A stretch of 64,000 nucleotides of DNA from contig NZ_JAUNKO010000004.1 in NCBI RefSeq assembly GCF_030532715.1, forward strand, positions 268,372 to 332,371, given 5' to 3'. Position numbers and translations under genes: made by a program. The DNA comes from Corynebacterium sp. Its GTDB lineage: Bacteria > Actinomycetota > Actinomycetes > Mycobacteriales > Mycobacteriaceae. Position 1 is the stretch's first letter. Every line of letters begins with the position of its first letter. The notes below the pieces were generated by a model. The model had not been told where the DNA came from. It did no database searches and saw only the letters and a program-made list of their open reading frames with translations. Below, in pieces: positions 45,010-49,921 of this stretch.

Positions 45010-45627
45010 TTAGCCGTGAATGATCTCCATTGATTCGCTGATTTCGTCGGATGCTGCGAGGGCTTCGGCGAGGAGTGCGGCGTCGCCGGTGATGCGTGGG
45101 TTGAGCCAGTCGTCGTGCATTTCGGCTGGCAAAATTAGTGGCATCCGGGGGTGTACGGTTGCGGCTTGCGCCACGGCGTTGCGCGTGACCAGTGCATACG
45201 TGAGCGTATCGACGTCTCCGTGGTAGCTGTTTGTGGTAATTGCGGCGATTCCGAACGTACTGCGGTCCGGCAGGGCGAAGACGGTGCCTTTTTCGACGTA
45301 CCAGGTAGCGGGCGCAAGTGCACGGTGATTGCGGAATGGGGTTTTCCACGCTGGTGAGCGTAAGAGTTTGTCATCGCGGGCGTTAAATGCGCTGAATTTT
45401 GCGGGTTCGTTACGTATGTGGAGCCACCACCAGGCGAGCTGGAGCGTTCGGTTGCCGTCTTGGTCAGTGGTGATCAAGGGGTTGAGGTTGCGAGCTTTGT
45501 TTCCGGTAATTTTTGCGGTGCCGTTATGGTGGGCGATCCACTGTTCTAATACATTGTGGTGTTCCCGTTCGTTGAGTGGTGGGAGGTCGTACACCAAGTT
45601 CGGGTCGAGGCCGTATGTTGCACACAT
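45010..45627 (-). CDS. SOS-response-associated peptidase (SRAP/YedK family abasic-site processing protein), copy 1
   Basis: It starts MCATYG (catalytic Cys2). Core motifs align to YedK (NARDDKL, ALAPATWYVE, HPRMPLILPAEMHDDWLNP). The C-terminus (…AEALAASDEISESMEIIHG) lies outside the repeat and looks native. Confidence 0.7.
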   Translation of the reverse strand: MCATYGLDPNLVYDLPPLNEREHHNVLEQWIAHHNGTAKITGNKARNLNPLITTDQDGNRTLQLAWWWLHIRNEPAKFSAFNARDDKLLRSPAWKTPFRNHRALAPATWYVEKGTVFALPDRSTFGIAAITTNSYHGDVDTLTYALVTRNAVAQAATVHPRMPLILPAEMHDDWLNPRITGDAALLAEALAASDEISESMEIIHG

Positions 45628-45848
45628 GGGCTTTTAGGGGTTGGCTACGTTGGGATGGGAAATCATCGGGGCGCTCCAATCTGGCCGCTATTTCTTTGGA
45701 AGCGGTATCACGCTGATGATCCTACACAGCGCCTGCAGGCCCCCCGCGGTATGGCGGGGATCACATTATCTCTTCGTGAGGATTCGCTGATTCGTCACGT
45801 CTTATAGGTGTCCCTTGTTCACAGTGCCAGCACATGTTGGCGCTACAG
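45068..45848. repeat. 781-bp direct repeat, copy 1 (identical to 49141..49921)
   Basis: Bases match at every position compared, with a constant offset of 4073 nt. All sub-ORFs translate identically in the track. Confidence 0.9.
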
Positions 45849-46664
45849 GAGTCTGTCAAGTTGTTTGTGTGTGGGAGTTGAAAATGGGGGTTGTTCGGGG
45901 TGCTCAATGTATGGTTCGTAGCGGTCGGGGTAGGCCACTGCCATGTGGTGTATAGCCCGTTTTCATTGAGGAACTTTTCGAGCTTCAACGAGCCGGCCGG
46001 CGGTAGCGGCAACGCGTTGTTGCGTTCTTGTTTGTGTTGTGGGGCGCGTCGATCTTCGATAGTGCAGATCATCAGCGAAAGTGTTTTGATTGCCGAATCG
46101 TCATGGCGGAATTGTGGGAACGGGTTGAACCGGTCCCAGGTGTGGCGCCGGAGGTTGACGGGTTGGGGATATGTTTGTCCCAACGCCGCTGGATTCGAAC
46201 CGCTGTCATGTGGTGTTGGCTTCATCGGCACTTGGAGGCGTTGTAGATTTCCCGGCGTTGCTTGGTGGCCCCTTCTGCGGTCGGTGGAGGACACGTATCG
46301 GGTGGCCGATCGGATGAGATGGACCACTAAAAGTCTGCCCCATCGACTTCGGCTAGGTCGTCTCACATGGCGTTTTGTAAAGCTGTTGAGCCCATCGCAG
46401 CCAAACGATGAAGACGACCTTTGGCTGCCTCGGTTGGCACGTTTAAGCGCATATCGATGCCCAAAATGAAGCACCGTGCCTGCTTGGCGAGCCAGAATCG
46501 TAAAGCATGTGCTTCGGCACCTCCCATATTGGCTGTGTCAAAAGTACTCATGTGACCACTATTAGTTCTCGACGTCCCTAACTACACCATCCATGGTGTA
46601 GCGGTCTCTACGCCCTAAACGTGAGCGAGATGATGTCAGCAGACAAACTTGATGTCGTTTTCCG

Positions 46665-46955
46665 TTAATCGCCAAGAATAAAGGCGGGTAAAAATAGGAG
46701 AATTGTGGGCGCGTTAAACGCTATGGCACCTGCCAGAATTAAGTCGTGGCATTTACTTTTATTGCTTAATGTGATGATACAGATTGTAAGTATTACGATG
46801 CTCAGAATAAGCAGCCACATGAACAAATGAACCGAGCGCGCTGGCCCCAAGAGTTCAAACCGCCAAATTGCAGCTGGGAGAAAAGCGATTGCAGTGAGTC
46901 CCCACCCGATCGGCCTAGCGTATTGAATGATGACTTTTAGATGTGCTGAATTCAT
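46665..46955 (-). CDS. small membrane protein B (about 97 aa, 3 TM)
   Basis: ATG at 46955 is 9 nt after the stop of protein A. The product (MNSAHLKVIIQYARPIGWGLTAIAFLPAAIW…) is hydrophobic and the region is low-GC. Confidence 0.45.
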   Translation of the reverse strand: MNSAHLKVIIQYARPIGWGLTAIAFLPAAIWRFELLGPARSVHLFMWLLILSIVILTICIITLSNKSKCHDLILAGAIAFNAPTILLFLPAFILGD

Positions 46956-46963
46956 TGAATAGT

Positions 46964-47251
46964 TCACCACTGCCGGTTGTGTTCTGAGAAAAATGGGAGG
47001 GTCCAAATGAAAAGTGTTGGTAATGAAATCAATGAGAAGAAAGCAGCCGACCACAAATCATAGTTTTTCAACTTGATCGCAAAGAAAACGTTAACCACCA
47101 CACTGGCAAAAATAATGAGTAAGCAAATATATCCCAACCATGAAACATTGCTATCAGCGATACTCATAATCGTGCCTGCGGCGAAGTAGCTTAGAAAGGT
47201 CATTGACCATCCGACTTTACGTGCTGTCAACAACATGCGAACAAATCCCAT
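46964..47251 (-). CDS. small membrane protein A (95 aa, 3 TM)
   Basis: MGFVRMLLTARKVGW…: hydrophobic helices. It is downstream of and co-directional with the PLA2 gene, in a low-GC region. Confidence 0.45.
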   Translation of the reverse strand: MGFVRMLLTARKVGWSMTFLSYFAAGTIMSIADSNVSWLGYICLLIIFASVVVNVFFAIKLKNYDLWSAAFFSLISLPTLFIWTLPFFSEHNRQW

Positions 47252-47892: not shown

Positions 47893-48569
47893 GAATTCCA
47901 TTCCTAGTGGTGATGTTGTTTGAGAGCTTGTGGACTCCATAGTTTGTGAGACATGGAGCTTAGTTATCTAACTAAGCAGAAACTTTCCTAGAGGTCTAAT
48001 TTTCTTATGCAAAACCCAAGTTTGCGGGGGTGCTTTATCTCTTCATTATTATTGTGTGCTGCAAATACTGGTAGATCGTTAGGGTGGAACGATAACATGT
48101 GCATGGAAGTATCGAAACAATATTCGAACTAATCACTATGTTCGAAGGATGTTTTCAGTAAAATGTTTCATTAAGGTTGATTGGGTTTTAGTGAATTGTC
48201 GGGGATCGCTGAGCGGTTCAAGTATCTTGTTTCCGATTTGAGTTTCTGCACACTCCTAACGTTTTTCCTTGTCTAACTTTGTAATGGGGGTAGTTGTAAA
48301 ATTGCTATTCGTTTTGTGCGCTCAACCATAGGGGCTGAGCTATTTGGTTGTGTGGTTTGGAGTTATTTCGTCACTGAGTAGAAACAGTGTTCGCACGAAG
48401 GCTTAAGTATTGGTCTCCGCGACACTTTAGGGCGAGCAAAATCTAGAAATTGGTAATCACACCCATTAACGTTTTGCTTACTTGTGTCCCAGTATTTGGT
48501 GCATCTAACGTTGAATTATCAGCGCACAACCACTTAGTGGATACAGTTTGGATGTAGGCAGGAGGTCAG

Positions 48570-48743
48570 ATGACGAACCATATCTCGATGTCAGGTATTG
48601 CTCGCTTGGCTGGCGTTGCGAGAACGACGGTGAGTATGTGGCGGAAACGTTTTGGCGTTGATTCGGATTCACCTTTTCCGACACCGTTGAGTCGCGCTGA
48701 TTTTGATGCCTCTTTGATTTTTGACGCAGCTGCGGTCGCTTAA
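48570..48743 (+). CDS. 57-aa helix-turn-helix DNA-binding protein (AlpA/excisionase-like)
   Basis: AGGAGG lies 5 nt before the ATG. The product MTNHISMSGIARLAGVARTTVSMWRKRFG… fits an HTH pattern. It is absent from the track because it is under 60 aa. Confidence 0.5.
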   Translation: MTNHISMSGIARLAGVARTTVSMWRKRFGVDSDSPFPTPLSRADFDASLIFDAAAVA

Positions 48744-48995
48744 TGGCTTGTTGCTACGAATCGTAGTAAGGGCAGGGACGTTGTTGGGGATGCCCCGTTC
48801 CACTCCTCACTGTTTGATGTTAGGTAATCGGGCACAAAAGAATGTTTCTGGGGATCTTCTTGTATTGGCAGTTCACGCAGGTTTGATGGTTCCGGAAGGG
48901 CTTCTGTTTGAAGATAGCAATGTCGACTCACCGAGGTGTTAGCAAATTACTTGGCGGAGTGCATCAACTGGAAAACCGCGCGTTATTGAAGTGCT

Positions 48996-49700
48996 TTATG
49001 GTACGAAAATCCAAGATGAAAAGCTTTTTGCTCGAGGTCTAGGAACGGTGCCGGTGATTGGCAAAGAGGAATTGAATGATGTGAGCATGATCGGTAAACG
49101 CAGAATTGATCGTCTTCGGCTTGAAGAAATCGTTGCAAATGCGAGGAGTGCGGCGTCGCCGGTGATGCGTGGGTTGAGCCAGTCGTCGTGCATTTCGGCT
49201 GGCAAAATTAGTGGCATCCGGGGGTGTACGGTTGCGGCTTGCGCCACGGCGTTGCGCGTGACCAGTGCATACGTGAGCGTATCGACGTCTCCGTGGTAGC
49301 TGTTTGTGGTAATTGCGGCGATTCCGAACGTACTGCGGTCCGGCAGGGCGAAGACGGTGCCTTTTTCGACGTACCAGGTAGCGGGCGCAAGTGCACGGTG
49401 ATTGCGGAATGGGGTTTTCCACGCTGGTGAGCGTAAGAGTTTGTCATCGCGGGCGTTAAATGCGCTGAATTTTGCGGGTTCGTTACGTATGTGGAGCCAC
49501 CACCAGGCGAGCTGGAGCGTTCGGTTGCCGTCTTGGTCAGTGGTGATCAAGGGGTTGAGGTTGCGAGCTTTGTTTCCGGTAATTTTTGCGGTGCCGTTAT
49601 GGTGGGCGATCCACTGTTCTAATACATTGTGGTGTTCCCGTTCGTTGAGTGGTGGGAGGTCGTACACCAAGTTCGGGTCGAGGCCGTATGTTGCACACAT
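48996..49700 (-). CDS. SRAP/YedK-family gene, copy 2 (divergent, likely non-native C-terminus)
   Basis: The first 196 aa are identical to copy 1. The C-terminal 38 aa (…AFATISSSRRRSILRLPIMLTSFNSSLP…) read into non-repeat DNA and look like junk. Confidence 0.5.
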   Translation of the reverse strand: MCATYGLDPNLVYDLPPLNEREHHNVLEQWIAHHNGTAKITGNKARNLNPLITTDQDGNRTLQLAWWWLHIRNEPAKFSAFNARDDKLLRSPAWKTPFRNHRALAPATWYVEKGTVFALPDRSTFGIAAITTNSYHGDVDTLTYALVTRNAVAQAATVHPRMPLILPAEMHDDWLNPRITGDAALLAFATISSSRRRSILRLPIMLTSFNSSLPITGTVPRPRAKSFSSWIFVP

Positions 49701-49921
49701 GGGCTTTTAGGGGTTGGCTACGTTGGGATGGGAAATCATCGGGGCGCTCCAATCTGGCCGCTATTTCTTTGGAAGCGGTATCACGCTGATGATCCTACAC
49801 AGCGCCTGCAGGCCCCCCGCGGTATGGCGGGGATCACATTATCTCTTCGTGAGGATTCGCTGATTCGTCACGTCTTATAGGTGTCCCTTGTTCACAGTGC
49901 CAGCACATGTTGGCGCTACAG
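49141..49921. repeat. 781-bp direct repeat, copy 2
   Basis: Identical to 45068..45848. Its right edge is immediately adjacent to the ATG (49922) of the Asp23 gene. Confidence 0.9.

What the first reader, a model, noticed from the sequence alone, without database searches (positions are those of the whole stretch)
45068..49921. Perfect 781-bp direct repeats bracket the PLA2 module and duplicate an SRAP (YedK-like) gene; the right repeat ends exactly at the Asp23 start codon
Segments 45068-45848 and 49141-49921 match at every position I compared, with a constant 4073-nt offset. Each carries most of an MCATYG… SRAP gene. Copy 1 continues outside the repeat into a plausible native C-terminus. Copy 2 reads into unrelated sequence with a junk-like tail. 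The arrangement A-[H]-X-[H]-B is what Campbell-type integration of a circular element carrying a truncated homolog would give. It could also arise from a segmental duplication followed by insertion. Recombination between the repeats would excise the PLA2-HTH module precisely. The right repeat boundary abuts the ATG of the first Asp23 gene, so the insertion may have replaced the native promoter context of the envelope-stress locus.
Basis: seen in the sequence. Interest (0 to 1): 0.65.

Follow-up and report, generated by a model that had tools for sequence, protein, structure and literature searches.

The report
Recent repeat-flanked PLA2 insertion, IS256 scar
A Corynebacterium chromosome carries a 3.3-kb piece of non-self-mobile DNA (a secreted phospholipase A2 module with a dead IS256 fragment) between two perfect 781-bp copies of a host segment. 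This is an ordinary, recent structural variant produced by recombination; close relatives still have the uninterrupted site.

Summary
The repeat is real. 45068-45848 and 49141-49921 are identical at 781/781 positions, and the flanks are unrelated.

- **Empty site in relatives.** Contigs from three other sequencing runs, 98-99% identical, have the single-copy arrangement A-H-B (methyltransferase, SRAP, Asp23 operon). Deleting X plus one H copy in silico reproduces that arrangement without an indel.
- **Independent assembly.** A separate k=31 assembly of the window's own run breaks exactly at three of the four H edges. The junctions A|H, X|H and H|B are therefore in the reads. The linkage A-H-X-H-B is not proven.
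- **Right edge.** It is the exact outer terminus of a decayed IS256-family half-element (45849-46514). It is not a feature of the Asp23 start codon.
- **Left edge.** It is an illegitimate joint that cuts SRAP after residue 187.
- **X has no mobility genes.** It encodes no integrase, replication protein or working transposase.
- **Asp23 promoter.** Asp23 keeps its native, conserved upstream region, which lies inside H copy 2. The "promoter replaced" idea fails.
- **PLA2 synteny.** In more distant relatives the PLA2 module lies directly beside the Asp23 operon.

Best reading: a recent insertion or duplication that depended on homologous recombination (Campbell-like), and which the same route can reverse. 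It is ordinary genome plasticity, and the exact pathway is unresolved.

The parts
45068..45848 (.). H copy 1: the 781-bp repeat. It holds SRAP codons 1-187, the 221-bp SRAP-Asp23 intergenic region, and an orphan copy of the Asp23 upstream region.
   Evidence: Identical to 49141-49921 at 781/781 positions. 15 differences from the single H of relative L032.
49141..49921 (.). H copy 2, directly upstream of the Asp23 operon.
   Evidence: Contiguous with B in L032, L033 and L040. 49825-49921 is conserved upstream of Asp23 in L036/L037.
44965..45067 (.). A: the native 3' end of SRAP (last 19 codons) plus 45 bp downstream. Single copy; shared with the empty-site relatives.
   Evidence: L032 and L033 align through 44965-45848 at 98%. 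The A|H junction 60-mer is identical in L032.
45010..45627 (-). Intact SRAP (YedK-like) gene, 205 aa.
   Evidence: PF02586, 70.5 bits. Homologues cover 99-100% of it. Motifs present: C2, FNAR81, WYVEK109, HPRMP159.
48996..49700 (-). 3'-truncated SRAP copy fused to a 47-residue tail that is not part of the SRAP sequence (234 aa).
   Evidence: Identical to the intact copy for residues 1-187, then diverges at the X|H joint. The Pfam match ends at residue 187.
45849..46514 (-). Decayed 3' half of an IS256-family element. The transposase C-terminal half carries stops, frameshifts and an internal deletion of about 31 aa.
   Evidence: tblastn with the IS256-family transposase of C. diphtheriae plasmid NZ_CP091096.1 aligns aa ~228-447 to 46475-45906, E 2e-15. 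The DNA alignment pairs IS nt 712-1435 with 46514-45849 at 74% identity with many gaps.
45849..45875 (-). Right terminal inverted repeat (IRR) of the IS256-family remnant. Its last base is the H|X junction.
   Evidence: CCCACACACAAACAACTTGACAGACTC versus the plasmid IRR CCCACACACAAACAACTTGACACGCTC, 25/27. The plasmid element's terminus is fixed by its 8-bp target duplication TTCCACCA. It is the only copy in the window.
46665..47251 (-). Two overlapping small membrane-protein ORFs (129 aa at 46665-47054; 95 aa at 46964-47251).
   Evidence: Homologous pairs follow PLA2 in L036/L037 and are repeated several times in L036. No family hit.
47287..47940 (-). Secreted phospholipase A2 (217-aa ORF; 201 aa from the start that matches P0121).
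   Evidence: PF00068, 31.1 bits against a cut-off of 32.1. YGNWCG calcium loop and GHDHC dyad aligned to solved PLA2s. 100% identical to P0121.
48082..48133 (.). 52-bp element conserved in the PLA2-Asp23 spacer of L036/L037.
   Evidence: 84.6% identity to L036 9760-9810 and L037 9381-9431.
48570..48743 (+). Short HTH ORF (57 aa) ending in a TAA at 48741 that appears to interrupt a longer frame. Further protein-like frames run up to the X|H joint at 49140.
   Evidence: tblastn matches (39-44% identity) to N-terminal HTH regions on actinobacterial plasmids and one phage run on past the stop. Frames shown. Database search found only itself.
49922..50467 (+). First Asp23-family gene of the 8-gene Asp23/ECF-sigma operon (B). 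Start uncertain: 49907, 49922 or 49940.
   Evidence: PF03780, 92 bits. 82% aa identity to the L036/L037 homologue. N-terminal alignment.
43709..44964 (.). Second window-specific segment next to A, with a 5'-truncated ClpP paralogue (44103-44576, plus strand). L032 has 198 unrelated bp here.
   Evidence: PF00574 matches profile positions 43-180 of 182.
42412..42488 (+). tRNA-Met at the left border of the lower-GC variable region.
   Evidence: ARAGORN and Rfam. No repeat of its 3' end downstream.

Best explanation
**Shown.** The locus is an empty site A-H-B (SRAP gene, shared intergenic region, Asp23 operon) into which 4,073 bp have been added: X (3,292 bp) plus a second copy of the 781-bp segment H.

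**Inferred mechanism.** The addition happened recently by host homologous recombination. The simplest route is one crossover within H between the chromosome and a circularised DNA carrying X+H (Campbell-type). An equivalent route is an unequal exchange between a chromosome that bore an IS256-associated insertion at this site and one that did not.

**Why X is cargo and not a self-mobile element (shown).** It consists of:
- half of a dead IS256-family element;
- two small membrane-protein genes;
- a secreted PLA2 gene;
- an interrupted HTH ORF.

**The two edges of the repeat have different origins.** The right edge is the point where an IS256-family element once inserted, at target CGCTACAG just 5' of the ATG at 49922. 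The left edge is an illegitimate joint that cuts SRAP after codon 187.

**Consequences.**
- No host gene is lost. The full SRAP keeps its promoter (copy 1), and the Asp23 operon keeps its native upstream 781 bp (copy 2).
- Two by-products are added: a truncated SRAP' and an orphan Asp23-upstream copy that faces the IS remnant.
- Recombination between the repeats would delete X and restore the relatives' arrangement.
For: - Exact 781-bp repeat with unrelated flanks.
- Empty-site allele in three other runs at 98-99% identity.
- The in-silico deletion product is colinear with L032, with no indel at the junction and one SNP.
- One intact and one 3'-truncated SRAP copy.
- No integrase, replication protein, att site or microhomology at the junctions.
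- The copies differ at 0/781 positions but both differ from L032 at the same 15/781. Synonymous divergence from L032 is about 0.02 on both sides of H|B. The duplication is therefore younger than the strain split: my Poisson estimate of P(0 differences) is about 1e-3 to 2e-5 if it were as old.
- The IS256 terminus lies exactly at H|X.
- The Asp23 upstream region inside H is conserved across species, so H-B contiguity is ancestral.
- Junctions A|H, X|H and H|B are present in an independent assembly graph of the same run.
Against: - No circle, and no donor haplotype carrying X with its missing distal part, was found. X is known only from this one run.
- A Campbell event needs the incoming H to be identical to the resident H. 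The IS remnant at the H|X joint is heavily decayed, which suggests that joint could be old unless the IS was already defective when it was mobilised. That tension is unresolved.
- PLA2 lies next to the Asp23 operon in L036/L037. X may therefore have a longer history at this locus than a simple recent import.
- Cis linkage of the four junctions is not proven by the data available here.
Confidence: 0.5

Rival explanations
1. An intrachromosomal two-step or template-switch origin. An IS256-bounded insertion (IS, PLA2 cargo, distal part, possibly a second IS) landed at CGCTACAG between H and Asp23. Later H was copied in front of Asp23 and the distal part of the insertion was lost. This could happen by tandem duplication of H-X followed by precise excision of the second insertion copy through its 8-bp target duplication, or by replication template switching. 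The result restores the native promoter to the operon.
For: - The H|X joint is an exact IS256-family terminus.
- IS256 makes 8-bp target duplications and can be excised cleanly without transposase (PMC11178275, citing Hennig and Ziebuhr 2008).
- Copying from the resident H explains the 0/781 differences without needing an identical donor.
- The conserved Asp23 upstream region lies inside H, so restoring H-B contiguity could be selected.
Against: - It requires two rare events, or a complex switch with no microhomology at X|H.
- No second IS end or target-duplication partner remains.
- No strain with the postulated intermediate was found.
Confidence: 0.2
2. Assembly ambiguity. The reads come from a chromosome with A-H-B plus a separate molecule or strain carrying H-X. 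The assembler walked the loop A-H-X-H-B because it is the only path that uses every edge.
For: - The k=31 graph of the same run breaks at three of the H edges. That is the same graph whether the element is integrated or is a chromosome plus a circle.
- The source contig is a draft (341,716 bp), and the read type is unknown.
- Contig numbering in that run exceeds 56,000, so a mixed sample is possible.
Against: - X has no replication or partition gene to maintain a circle.
- All fragments from that run are 100% identical to the window, and H shows no second allele in the pieces recovered.
- A non-replicating excision product would be far too rare to shape an assembly.
Confidence: 0.13
3. An old duplication kept identical by gene conversion. 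A-H-X-H-B would be ancestral for the species, and the A-H-B relatives would be deletion derivatives formed by recombination between the repeats.
For: - PLA2-Asp23 synteny in L036/L037 and SRAP at the same locus in L034 suggest both genes are long-term residents.
- The IS remnant is heavily decayed.
- Deletion between the repeats gives exactly the L032 form.
Against: - 0/781 differences between copies versus 15/781 to L032. One of the shared differences lies 12 bp from the repeat edge, where conversion has almost no flanking homology.
- 781-bp direct repeats 3.3 kb apart should be lost quickly unless X is under selection.
Confidence: 0.1
4. A site-specific integrative element or tRNA-Met genomic island whose att sites happen to lie in the repeats.
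For: - Lower GC from tRNA-Met to about 49140.
- A weak excisionase-like hit for the HTH ORF (phrog_2620, E 0.005).
Against: - No integrase anywhere between tRNA-Met and Asp23.
- No repeat of the tRNA 3' end.
- A 781-bp perfect repeat of a host gene segment is not an att site.
- The HTH ORF looks interrupted by a stop.
Confidence: 0.02

Closest known systems
Campbell-type (single-crossover) integration of a non-replicating circular DNA by host homologous recombination, as seen with suicide or insertion vectors
   Same: The insert is flanked by direct repeats equal to the homology arm. One gene copy is intact and one is 3'-truncated. There is no target-site duplication, att site or integrase. 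Recombination between the repeats reverses it to the exact empty site.
   Different: This case is natural. There is no vector backbone or marker. The circle was not observed and its origin is unknown. One edge of the arm is set by an IS256 terminus.
IS256-family insertion sequences; closest sequenced relative found: the 1,435-bp element at about 11512-12946 of C. diphtheriae plasmid NZ_CP091096.1
   Same: The right inverted repeat matches at 25/27 positions. The C-terminal half of the transposase is recognisable. The terminus falls at the same base as in the intact element, which has an 8-bp target duplication.
   Different: Only the 3' half survives (666 bp). It carries stops, frameshifts and an internal deletion. 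There is no left inverted repeat and no partner target duplication. It cannot move by itself.
Integrase-less small genomic islands flanked by long direct repeats, such as the E. coli H47 genomic island (PMC3191183)
   Same: A small cargo island with no recombinase of its own. It is bounded by extensive direct repeats, and excision leaves one repeat copy.
   Different: The H47 repeats are imperfect att-like sites, and recombination there also occurs in a recombination-deficient host. Here the repeats are a perfect copy of a host gene segment, which fits ordinary homologous recombination.
PLA2 plus small membrane-protein cassettes of other Corynebacterium genomes (L036, L037, L042, L043-L045)
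   Same: PLA2 is 42-65% identical and is followed by small ORFs. In L036/L037 the membrane-protein homologues of the window's pair are confirmed, and the cassette lies next to the same Asp23 operon.
   Different: Those loci have no SRAP repeat, no IS256 remnant and no HTH ORF. In L042-L045 the cassette sits in unrelated chromosomal contexts.

Membership tests
Campbell-type single-crossover insertion | The insert is flanked by direct repeats identical to a segment that is single-copy in the empty site. | tested here: met
   781/781 identity. Single H in L032, L033 and L040.
Campbell-type single-crossover insertion | Recombination between the repeats regenerates the empty-site allele without a scar. 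| tested here: met
   The in-silico deletion is colinear with L032. The junction 60-mer matches with one SNP and no indel.
Campbell-type single-crossover insertion | One complete and one truncated copy of the gene that crosses the edge of the homology arm. | tested here: met
   SRAP of 205 aa versus a 234-aa chimera sharing residues 1-187.
Campbell-type single-crossover insertion | A circular intermediate carrying the insert plus one arm. | not testable with these tools
   No read-level data. X was found only in one run.
Campbell-type single-crossover insertion | All four junctions linked in cis on one chromosome. | not testable with these tools
   The independent graph shows three of the junctions but not their linkage.
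IS256-family insertion sequence | IS256-type transposase gene. | tested here: inconclusive
   Only aa ~228-447 are recognisable (E 2e-15), with stops, frameshifts and a deletion. No Pfam hit on the ORFs. This is a remnant, not a functional gene.
IS256-family insertion sequence | Terminal inverted repeats at both ends. | tested here: not met
   The right repeat is present at 25/27 identity. No left repeat within 7 mismatches anywhere in the window.
IS256-family insertion sequence | 8-bp target-site duplication. | tested here: inconclusive
   One copy of the presumed target CGCTACAG abuts the right inverted repeat. The other end of the element is missing.
Site-specific integrative island (integrase plus att, tRNA-linked) | Integrase or recombinase gene in the element. 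| tested here: not met
   None among the ORFs of 42.5-49.9 kb in Pfam, PHROGs or NCBIfam.
Site-specific integrative island (integrase plus att, tRNA-linked) | Short att repeat derived from the tRNA 3' end. | tested here: not met
   Only chance 9-13-mers of tRNA-Met recur.
SRAP / YedK family (PF02586) | Profile match above the curated cut-off, with an N-terminal Cys2. | tested here: met
   70.5 bits against a cut-off of 27.1. The protein starts MCATYG. FNAR, WYVEK and HPRMP motifs are present in both copies. Weak match to PDB 2f20.
Secreted phospholipase A2 (PF00068) | Profile match above the cut-off, a calcium-binding loop and an HD catalytic dyad. | tested here: inconclusive
   31.1 bits against a cut-off of 32.1. 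However, YGNWCG...G.G and C..HD.C align to solved PLA2s at E 1e-6.

The most novel reading that the evidence does not exclude
X+H could be a natural 'homing-arm' cassette: non-autonomous cargo that has captured a promoter-containing host fragment. It would enter and leave the chromosome purely by host RecA. The PLA2 and membrane-protein module would then be gained and lost without a scar and without disrupting SRAP or the Asp23 operon. A related reading is that the second H copy was selected because it gave the Asp23 operon back its promoter after an IS256-associated insertion.
Probability: 0.1. Interest if true: 0.5.

Novelty: new member of a known kind. Interest (0 to 1): 0.3.

Why it matters
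The value is mainly a clean, well-documented example. An integrase-less cargo segment sits between long perfect repeats. The empty site is preserved in sister strains. One repeat edge is explained to the base by an old IS256 insertion.

It also corrects two tempting inferences. The coincidence with the Asp23 ATG is not functional, and the operon has not lost its promoter.

For annotation, the locus holds a truncated SRAP pseudo-copy and an IS256 pseudogene. The layout should be confirmed with long reads before it is used in comparative work. It does not point to a new mechanism.

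Tried and rejected
- **Plasmid or phage origin of X.** Megablast of 44600-50000 against the plasmid and phage collections found nothing.
- **tRNA-Met island with an att repeat.** No repeat was found.
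- **RNA families.** Rfam across 42-51 kb returned only the tRNA.
- **Microhomology.** None at any of the four junctions.
- **HTH ORF as the start of an N6-methylase gene.** Only the HTH motif (aa 6-47) aligns; the rest does not. I do not call it a methylase.
- **Homologues of the HTH ORF.** The search found only the ORF itself.
- **Recombination breakpoint at H|B.** Raw divergence from L032 is 1.9% in H and 0.6% in B. Synonymous divergence is equal on both sides (0.021 versus 0.024), so the difference reflects selective constraint.
- **Other haplotypes.** Two JGI metagenome scans for the X end and the H end found nothing.
- **Exact-protein look-ups.** Neither SRAP product of the window is on record.
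- **Accessions in the literature.** A search for the run and assembly accessions found nothing.
- **The species' own genome.** The genome-contig scan did not recover it; the best SRAP hit was 71% identical.
- **Transposable unit X+H.** The right end of H does not resemble an IS256 left inverted repeat (manual comparison with the repeats).

Full report
**1. The observation**

Segments 45068-45848 and 49141-49921 are identical at all 781 positions, offset 4073. The match cannot be extended by one base on either side, and the adjoining 60 nt are unrelated (the same pair is seeded).

I use these labels: A is the sequence left of copy 1, H is the repeat, X is 45849-49140 (3,292 bp), and B is everything from 49922 onward.

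Each H holds the first 187 codons of an SRAP gene on the minus strand plus the 221 bp upstream of it.
- Copy 1 continues into A and gives a 205-aa protein. Homologues cover 99-100% of it.
- Copy 2 continues into X and gives a 234-aa chimera with a 47-residue tail that is not SRAP sequence.

The window is a Corynebacterium chromosome segment. Bulk GC is 0.59-0.62, H is 0.57 and X is 0.47.

**2. Relatives with the uninterrupted site**

The closest SRAP protein in the databases (P0001, 98% identity) lies on Logan contigs from runs SRR13247041 and SRR13247035.
- Contig L032 is 98.7% identical to the window over 6.5 kb.
- It reads methyltransferase, then 198 bp, then A, one H, then B, with no X.
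- L033 shows the same arrangement. L040, from a third run (SRR13247037), shows the same H-B contiguity.

Removing 45849-49921 from the window gives a sequence colinear with L032. There is no indel from 44994 to 54524, and the junction 60-mer matches with a single SNP. The A-H-X-H-B versus A-H-B relationship is therefore real.

**3. Is it in the reads?**

Four proteins of the window are found, 100% identical, on Logan contigs of run SRR24915807. That run is evidently the window's own sample.

| Contig | Window coordinates | Where it stops |
|---|---|---|
| L041 | 42432-45097 | 30 nt inside H copy 1, left edge |
| L035 | 46179-49170 | 30 nt inside H copy 2, left edge |
| L039 | 49892-56620 | 30 nt before the right edge of H copy 2 |

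All three are 100% identical to the window. A k=31 graph behaves this way around a repeat node with two entries and two exits.
- Junctions A|H, X|H and H|B therefore exist in the raw data of an independent assembly.
- The same graph would also arise from A-H-B plus a free H-X circle, or from a strain mixture.
- Cis linkage is not proven here. It needs long reads.

**4. What X is**

*Left end.* On the minus strand, 45849-46514 is the decayed right half of an IS256-family element.
- The transposase of an element on C. diphtheriae plasmid NZ_CP091096.1 aligns from aa ~228 to its last residue (447) with 46475-45906. The alignment crosses stops and frameshifts and lacks about 31 aa (E 2e-15).
- At DNA level, IS positions 712-1435 of 1435 align to 46514-45849 at 74% identity with many gaps.
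- The plasmid element has 27-28-nt inverted repeats and an 8-bp target duplication (TTCCACCA). These fix its terminus at ...GACACGCTC.
- The window reads CCCACACACAAACAACTTGACAGACTC (25/27 identical), and the next base is the last base of H.
- There is no left inverted repeat and no other IS256 copy in the window.

*Middle.* The rest of X holds:
- two overlapping small membrane-protein ORFs (46665-47251);
- a signal-peptide PLA2 (47287-47940) with the YGNWCG calcium loop and GHDHC dyad of eukaryote-type secreted PLA2s;
- a low-GC spacer with a 52-bp conserved element (48082-48133).

*Right end.* A 57-aa HTH ORF (48570-48743) ends in a TAA. tblastn matches to actinobacterial plasmid HTH regions run through that stop. 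Only the HTH motif resembles the N-terminus of N6-methylase genes. Protein-like frames continue on the plus strand up to the joint at 49140.

No integrase, replication protein or working transposase is present. No plasmid or phage record resembles the region.

**5. The two edges of the repeat**

*Right edge.* H|X at 45848|45849 is exactly the IS terminus. Homology between H-then-IS and H-then-B ends there because an IS256-family element once inserted into a contiguous H-B sequence. The target was CGCTACAG, immediately 5' of the ATG at 49922.

H-B contiguity is ancestral. The last ~100 bp of H (49825-49921) align with the region upstream of Asp23 in L036 and L037, species about 83% identical in the flanking core genes.

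The apparent precision with respect to the Asp23 start codon is therefore incidental. 49922 is only one of three in-frame ATGs. Gene calls on related contigs give 186 aa, matching a start at 49907. The conserved N-terminus begins further downstream.

*Left edge.* X|H at 49140|49141 has no microhomology. It truncates SRAP on one strand and cuts off the protein-like frames of X on the other. It is an illegitimate joint.

**6. Consequences for the genes**

- The intact SRAP keeps its own upstream 221 bp.
- The Asp23 operon keeps the same 781 bp upstream that it has in strains without X.
- The idea that the insertion replaced the operon's promoter context is therefore not supported.
- What is added: a truncated SRAP' that still has C2 and the FNAR, WYVEK and HPRMP motifs, and an orphan copy of the Asp23 upstream region facing the IS remnant. 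Its effect on the minus-strand PLA2 module is speculation.

**7. Age**

The two copies differ at 0/781 positions. Both differ from L032's H at the same 15 positions, one of them only 12 bp from the edge. Synonymous divergence from L032 is 0.021 in SRAP and 0.024 in the first Asp23 gene, so there is no discontinuity at H|B.

If the duplication were as old as the strain split, I would expect roughly 7-11 differences between the copies. That gives a Poisson P(0) of 1e-3 to 2e-5 (my estimate; arithmetic). The duplication is recent, or the copies have been homogenised. Homogenisation is hard to arrange so close to the edges.

**8. Wider context**

| Locus | Arrangement |
|---|---|
| L036, L037 | PLA2 (about 65% aa identity) directly beside the same Asp23 operon across a 434-bp spacer, followed by repeated pairs of the small membrane-protein genes; no SRAP |
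| L034 | SRAP directly beside the SfLAP gene; the eight-gene Asp23/sigma operon is absent |
| L042-L045 | PLA2 followed by a small ORF (homology to the window's membrane genes not tested), in unrelated chromosomal places |

A second polymorphism lies just left of A. The window has 1,256 bp with a truncated ClpP paralogue where L032 has 198 unrelated bp. The stretch between tRNA-Met and the SfLAP gene is thus a variable region in which cassettes are exchanged. X is not simply foreign to it.

**9. Mechanism**

What is shown:
- the anatomy;
- the empty site in relatives;
- the exact IS terminus at H|X;
- the absence of mobility genes;
- the recency of the duplication.

What is inferred is the route.

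*Best-supported class: homology-dependent addition of X+H.* This means one crossover within H between the chromosome and a circularised X+H (Campbell-type), or an equivalent unequal exchange between an insertion-bearing and an empty chromosome. It needs only host recombination. It explains the intact and truncated gene pair, and it is reversible to the observed empty allele.

Its weak points:
- no circle or donor was found;
- the incoming H must equal the resident H;
- the decayed IS at H|X suggests that joint could be old, unless the IS was already defective when mobilised in trans.

*Rivals.*
- An intrachromosomal route: an IS-bounded insertion, then copying of H and loss of the distal part through the 8-bp target duplication. 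IS256 is known to be excised cleanly without transposase (PMC11178275).
- An assembly loop ambiguity.
- An old duplication kept identical by gene conversion.
- A site-specific island, which is essentially excluded.

**10. Comparison with known systems, and verdict**

The arrangement works like a Campbell-type insertion and meets the sequence-level criteria for one. The circular intermediate and the cis linkage could not be tested.

The IS256 piece is a remnant, not a member capable of transposition: it has one inverted repeat, half a broken transposase gene and no partner duplication. A loose parallel is the integrase-less H47 island of E. coli, bounded by long direct repeats (PMC3191183). Its repeats are imperfect, and recombination there does not need the host's homologous recombination system.

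Overall this is a new instance of a known kind of structural variation. It is carefully resolvable but not surprising. Interest 0.3.

Noticed in passing
window 43709-44964: A second strain-specific segment lies right next to the SRAP 3' end. It is 1,256 bp with a 5'-truncated ClpP paralogue (44103-44576) and a low-GC tail. L032 has 198 unrelated bp at this position. The homology breakpoints are at 43708 and 44965.
   Followed up: partly
window 47287-47940; L036 10001-16890; L037 9622-11391: The PLA2 is of the eukaryote-type secreted family (PF00068-like, with a YGNWCG calcium loop, an HD dyad and a signal peptide), which is unusual for bacteria. It is always followed by small ORFs. In L036 the membrane-protein pairs are repeated at least five times. 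This could be a toxin/immunity arrangement.
   Followed up: partly
window 48082-48133: A 52-bp element is conserved at 84.6% with the PLA2-Asp23 spacer of L036/L037, although the rest of the spacer has diverged. It may be a regulatory site that travels with PLA2.
   Followed up: no
L034 4354-5718 versus window 49922-53800: In a species about 85% identical in the core flank, the whole eight-gene Asp23/DUF6286/ECF-sigma operon is absent and SRAP abuts the SfLAP gene with an 18-bp spacer. The operon is itself a presence/absence cassette.
   Followed up: no
window 46179 (end of Logan contig L035): The independent k=31 contig stops inside the IS256 remnant, 330 bp short of the H|X junction. This suggests related IS copies or variants elsewhere in that sample.
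   Followed up: no
window 45752-45848: There is an orphan copy of the conserved Asp23 upstream region, pointing rightward into the IS remnant and antisense to the PLA2 module. Whether it is transcriptionally active is unknown.
   Followed up: no
window 42412-43725: The region just after tRNA-Met has GC 0.50-0.56. The methyltransferase ORF has a long, implausible N-terminal extension (342 aa versus 287 aa as called on L041). The variable, lower-GC region starts at the tRNA, but no integrase or att repeat is present.
   Followed up: partly
window 48741-48743: An in-frame TAA interrupts the HTH ORF. Homologues continue with a ...EWL..NGR motif, which the window still encodes just after the stop (WLVATNRS).
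   Followed up: partly
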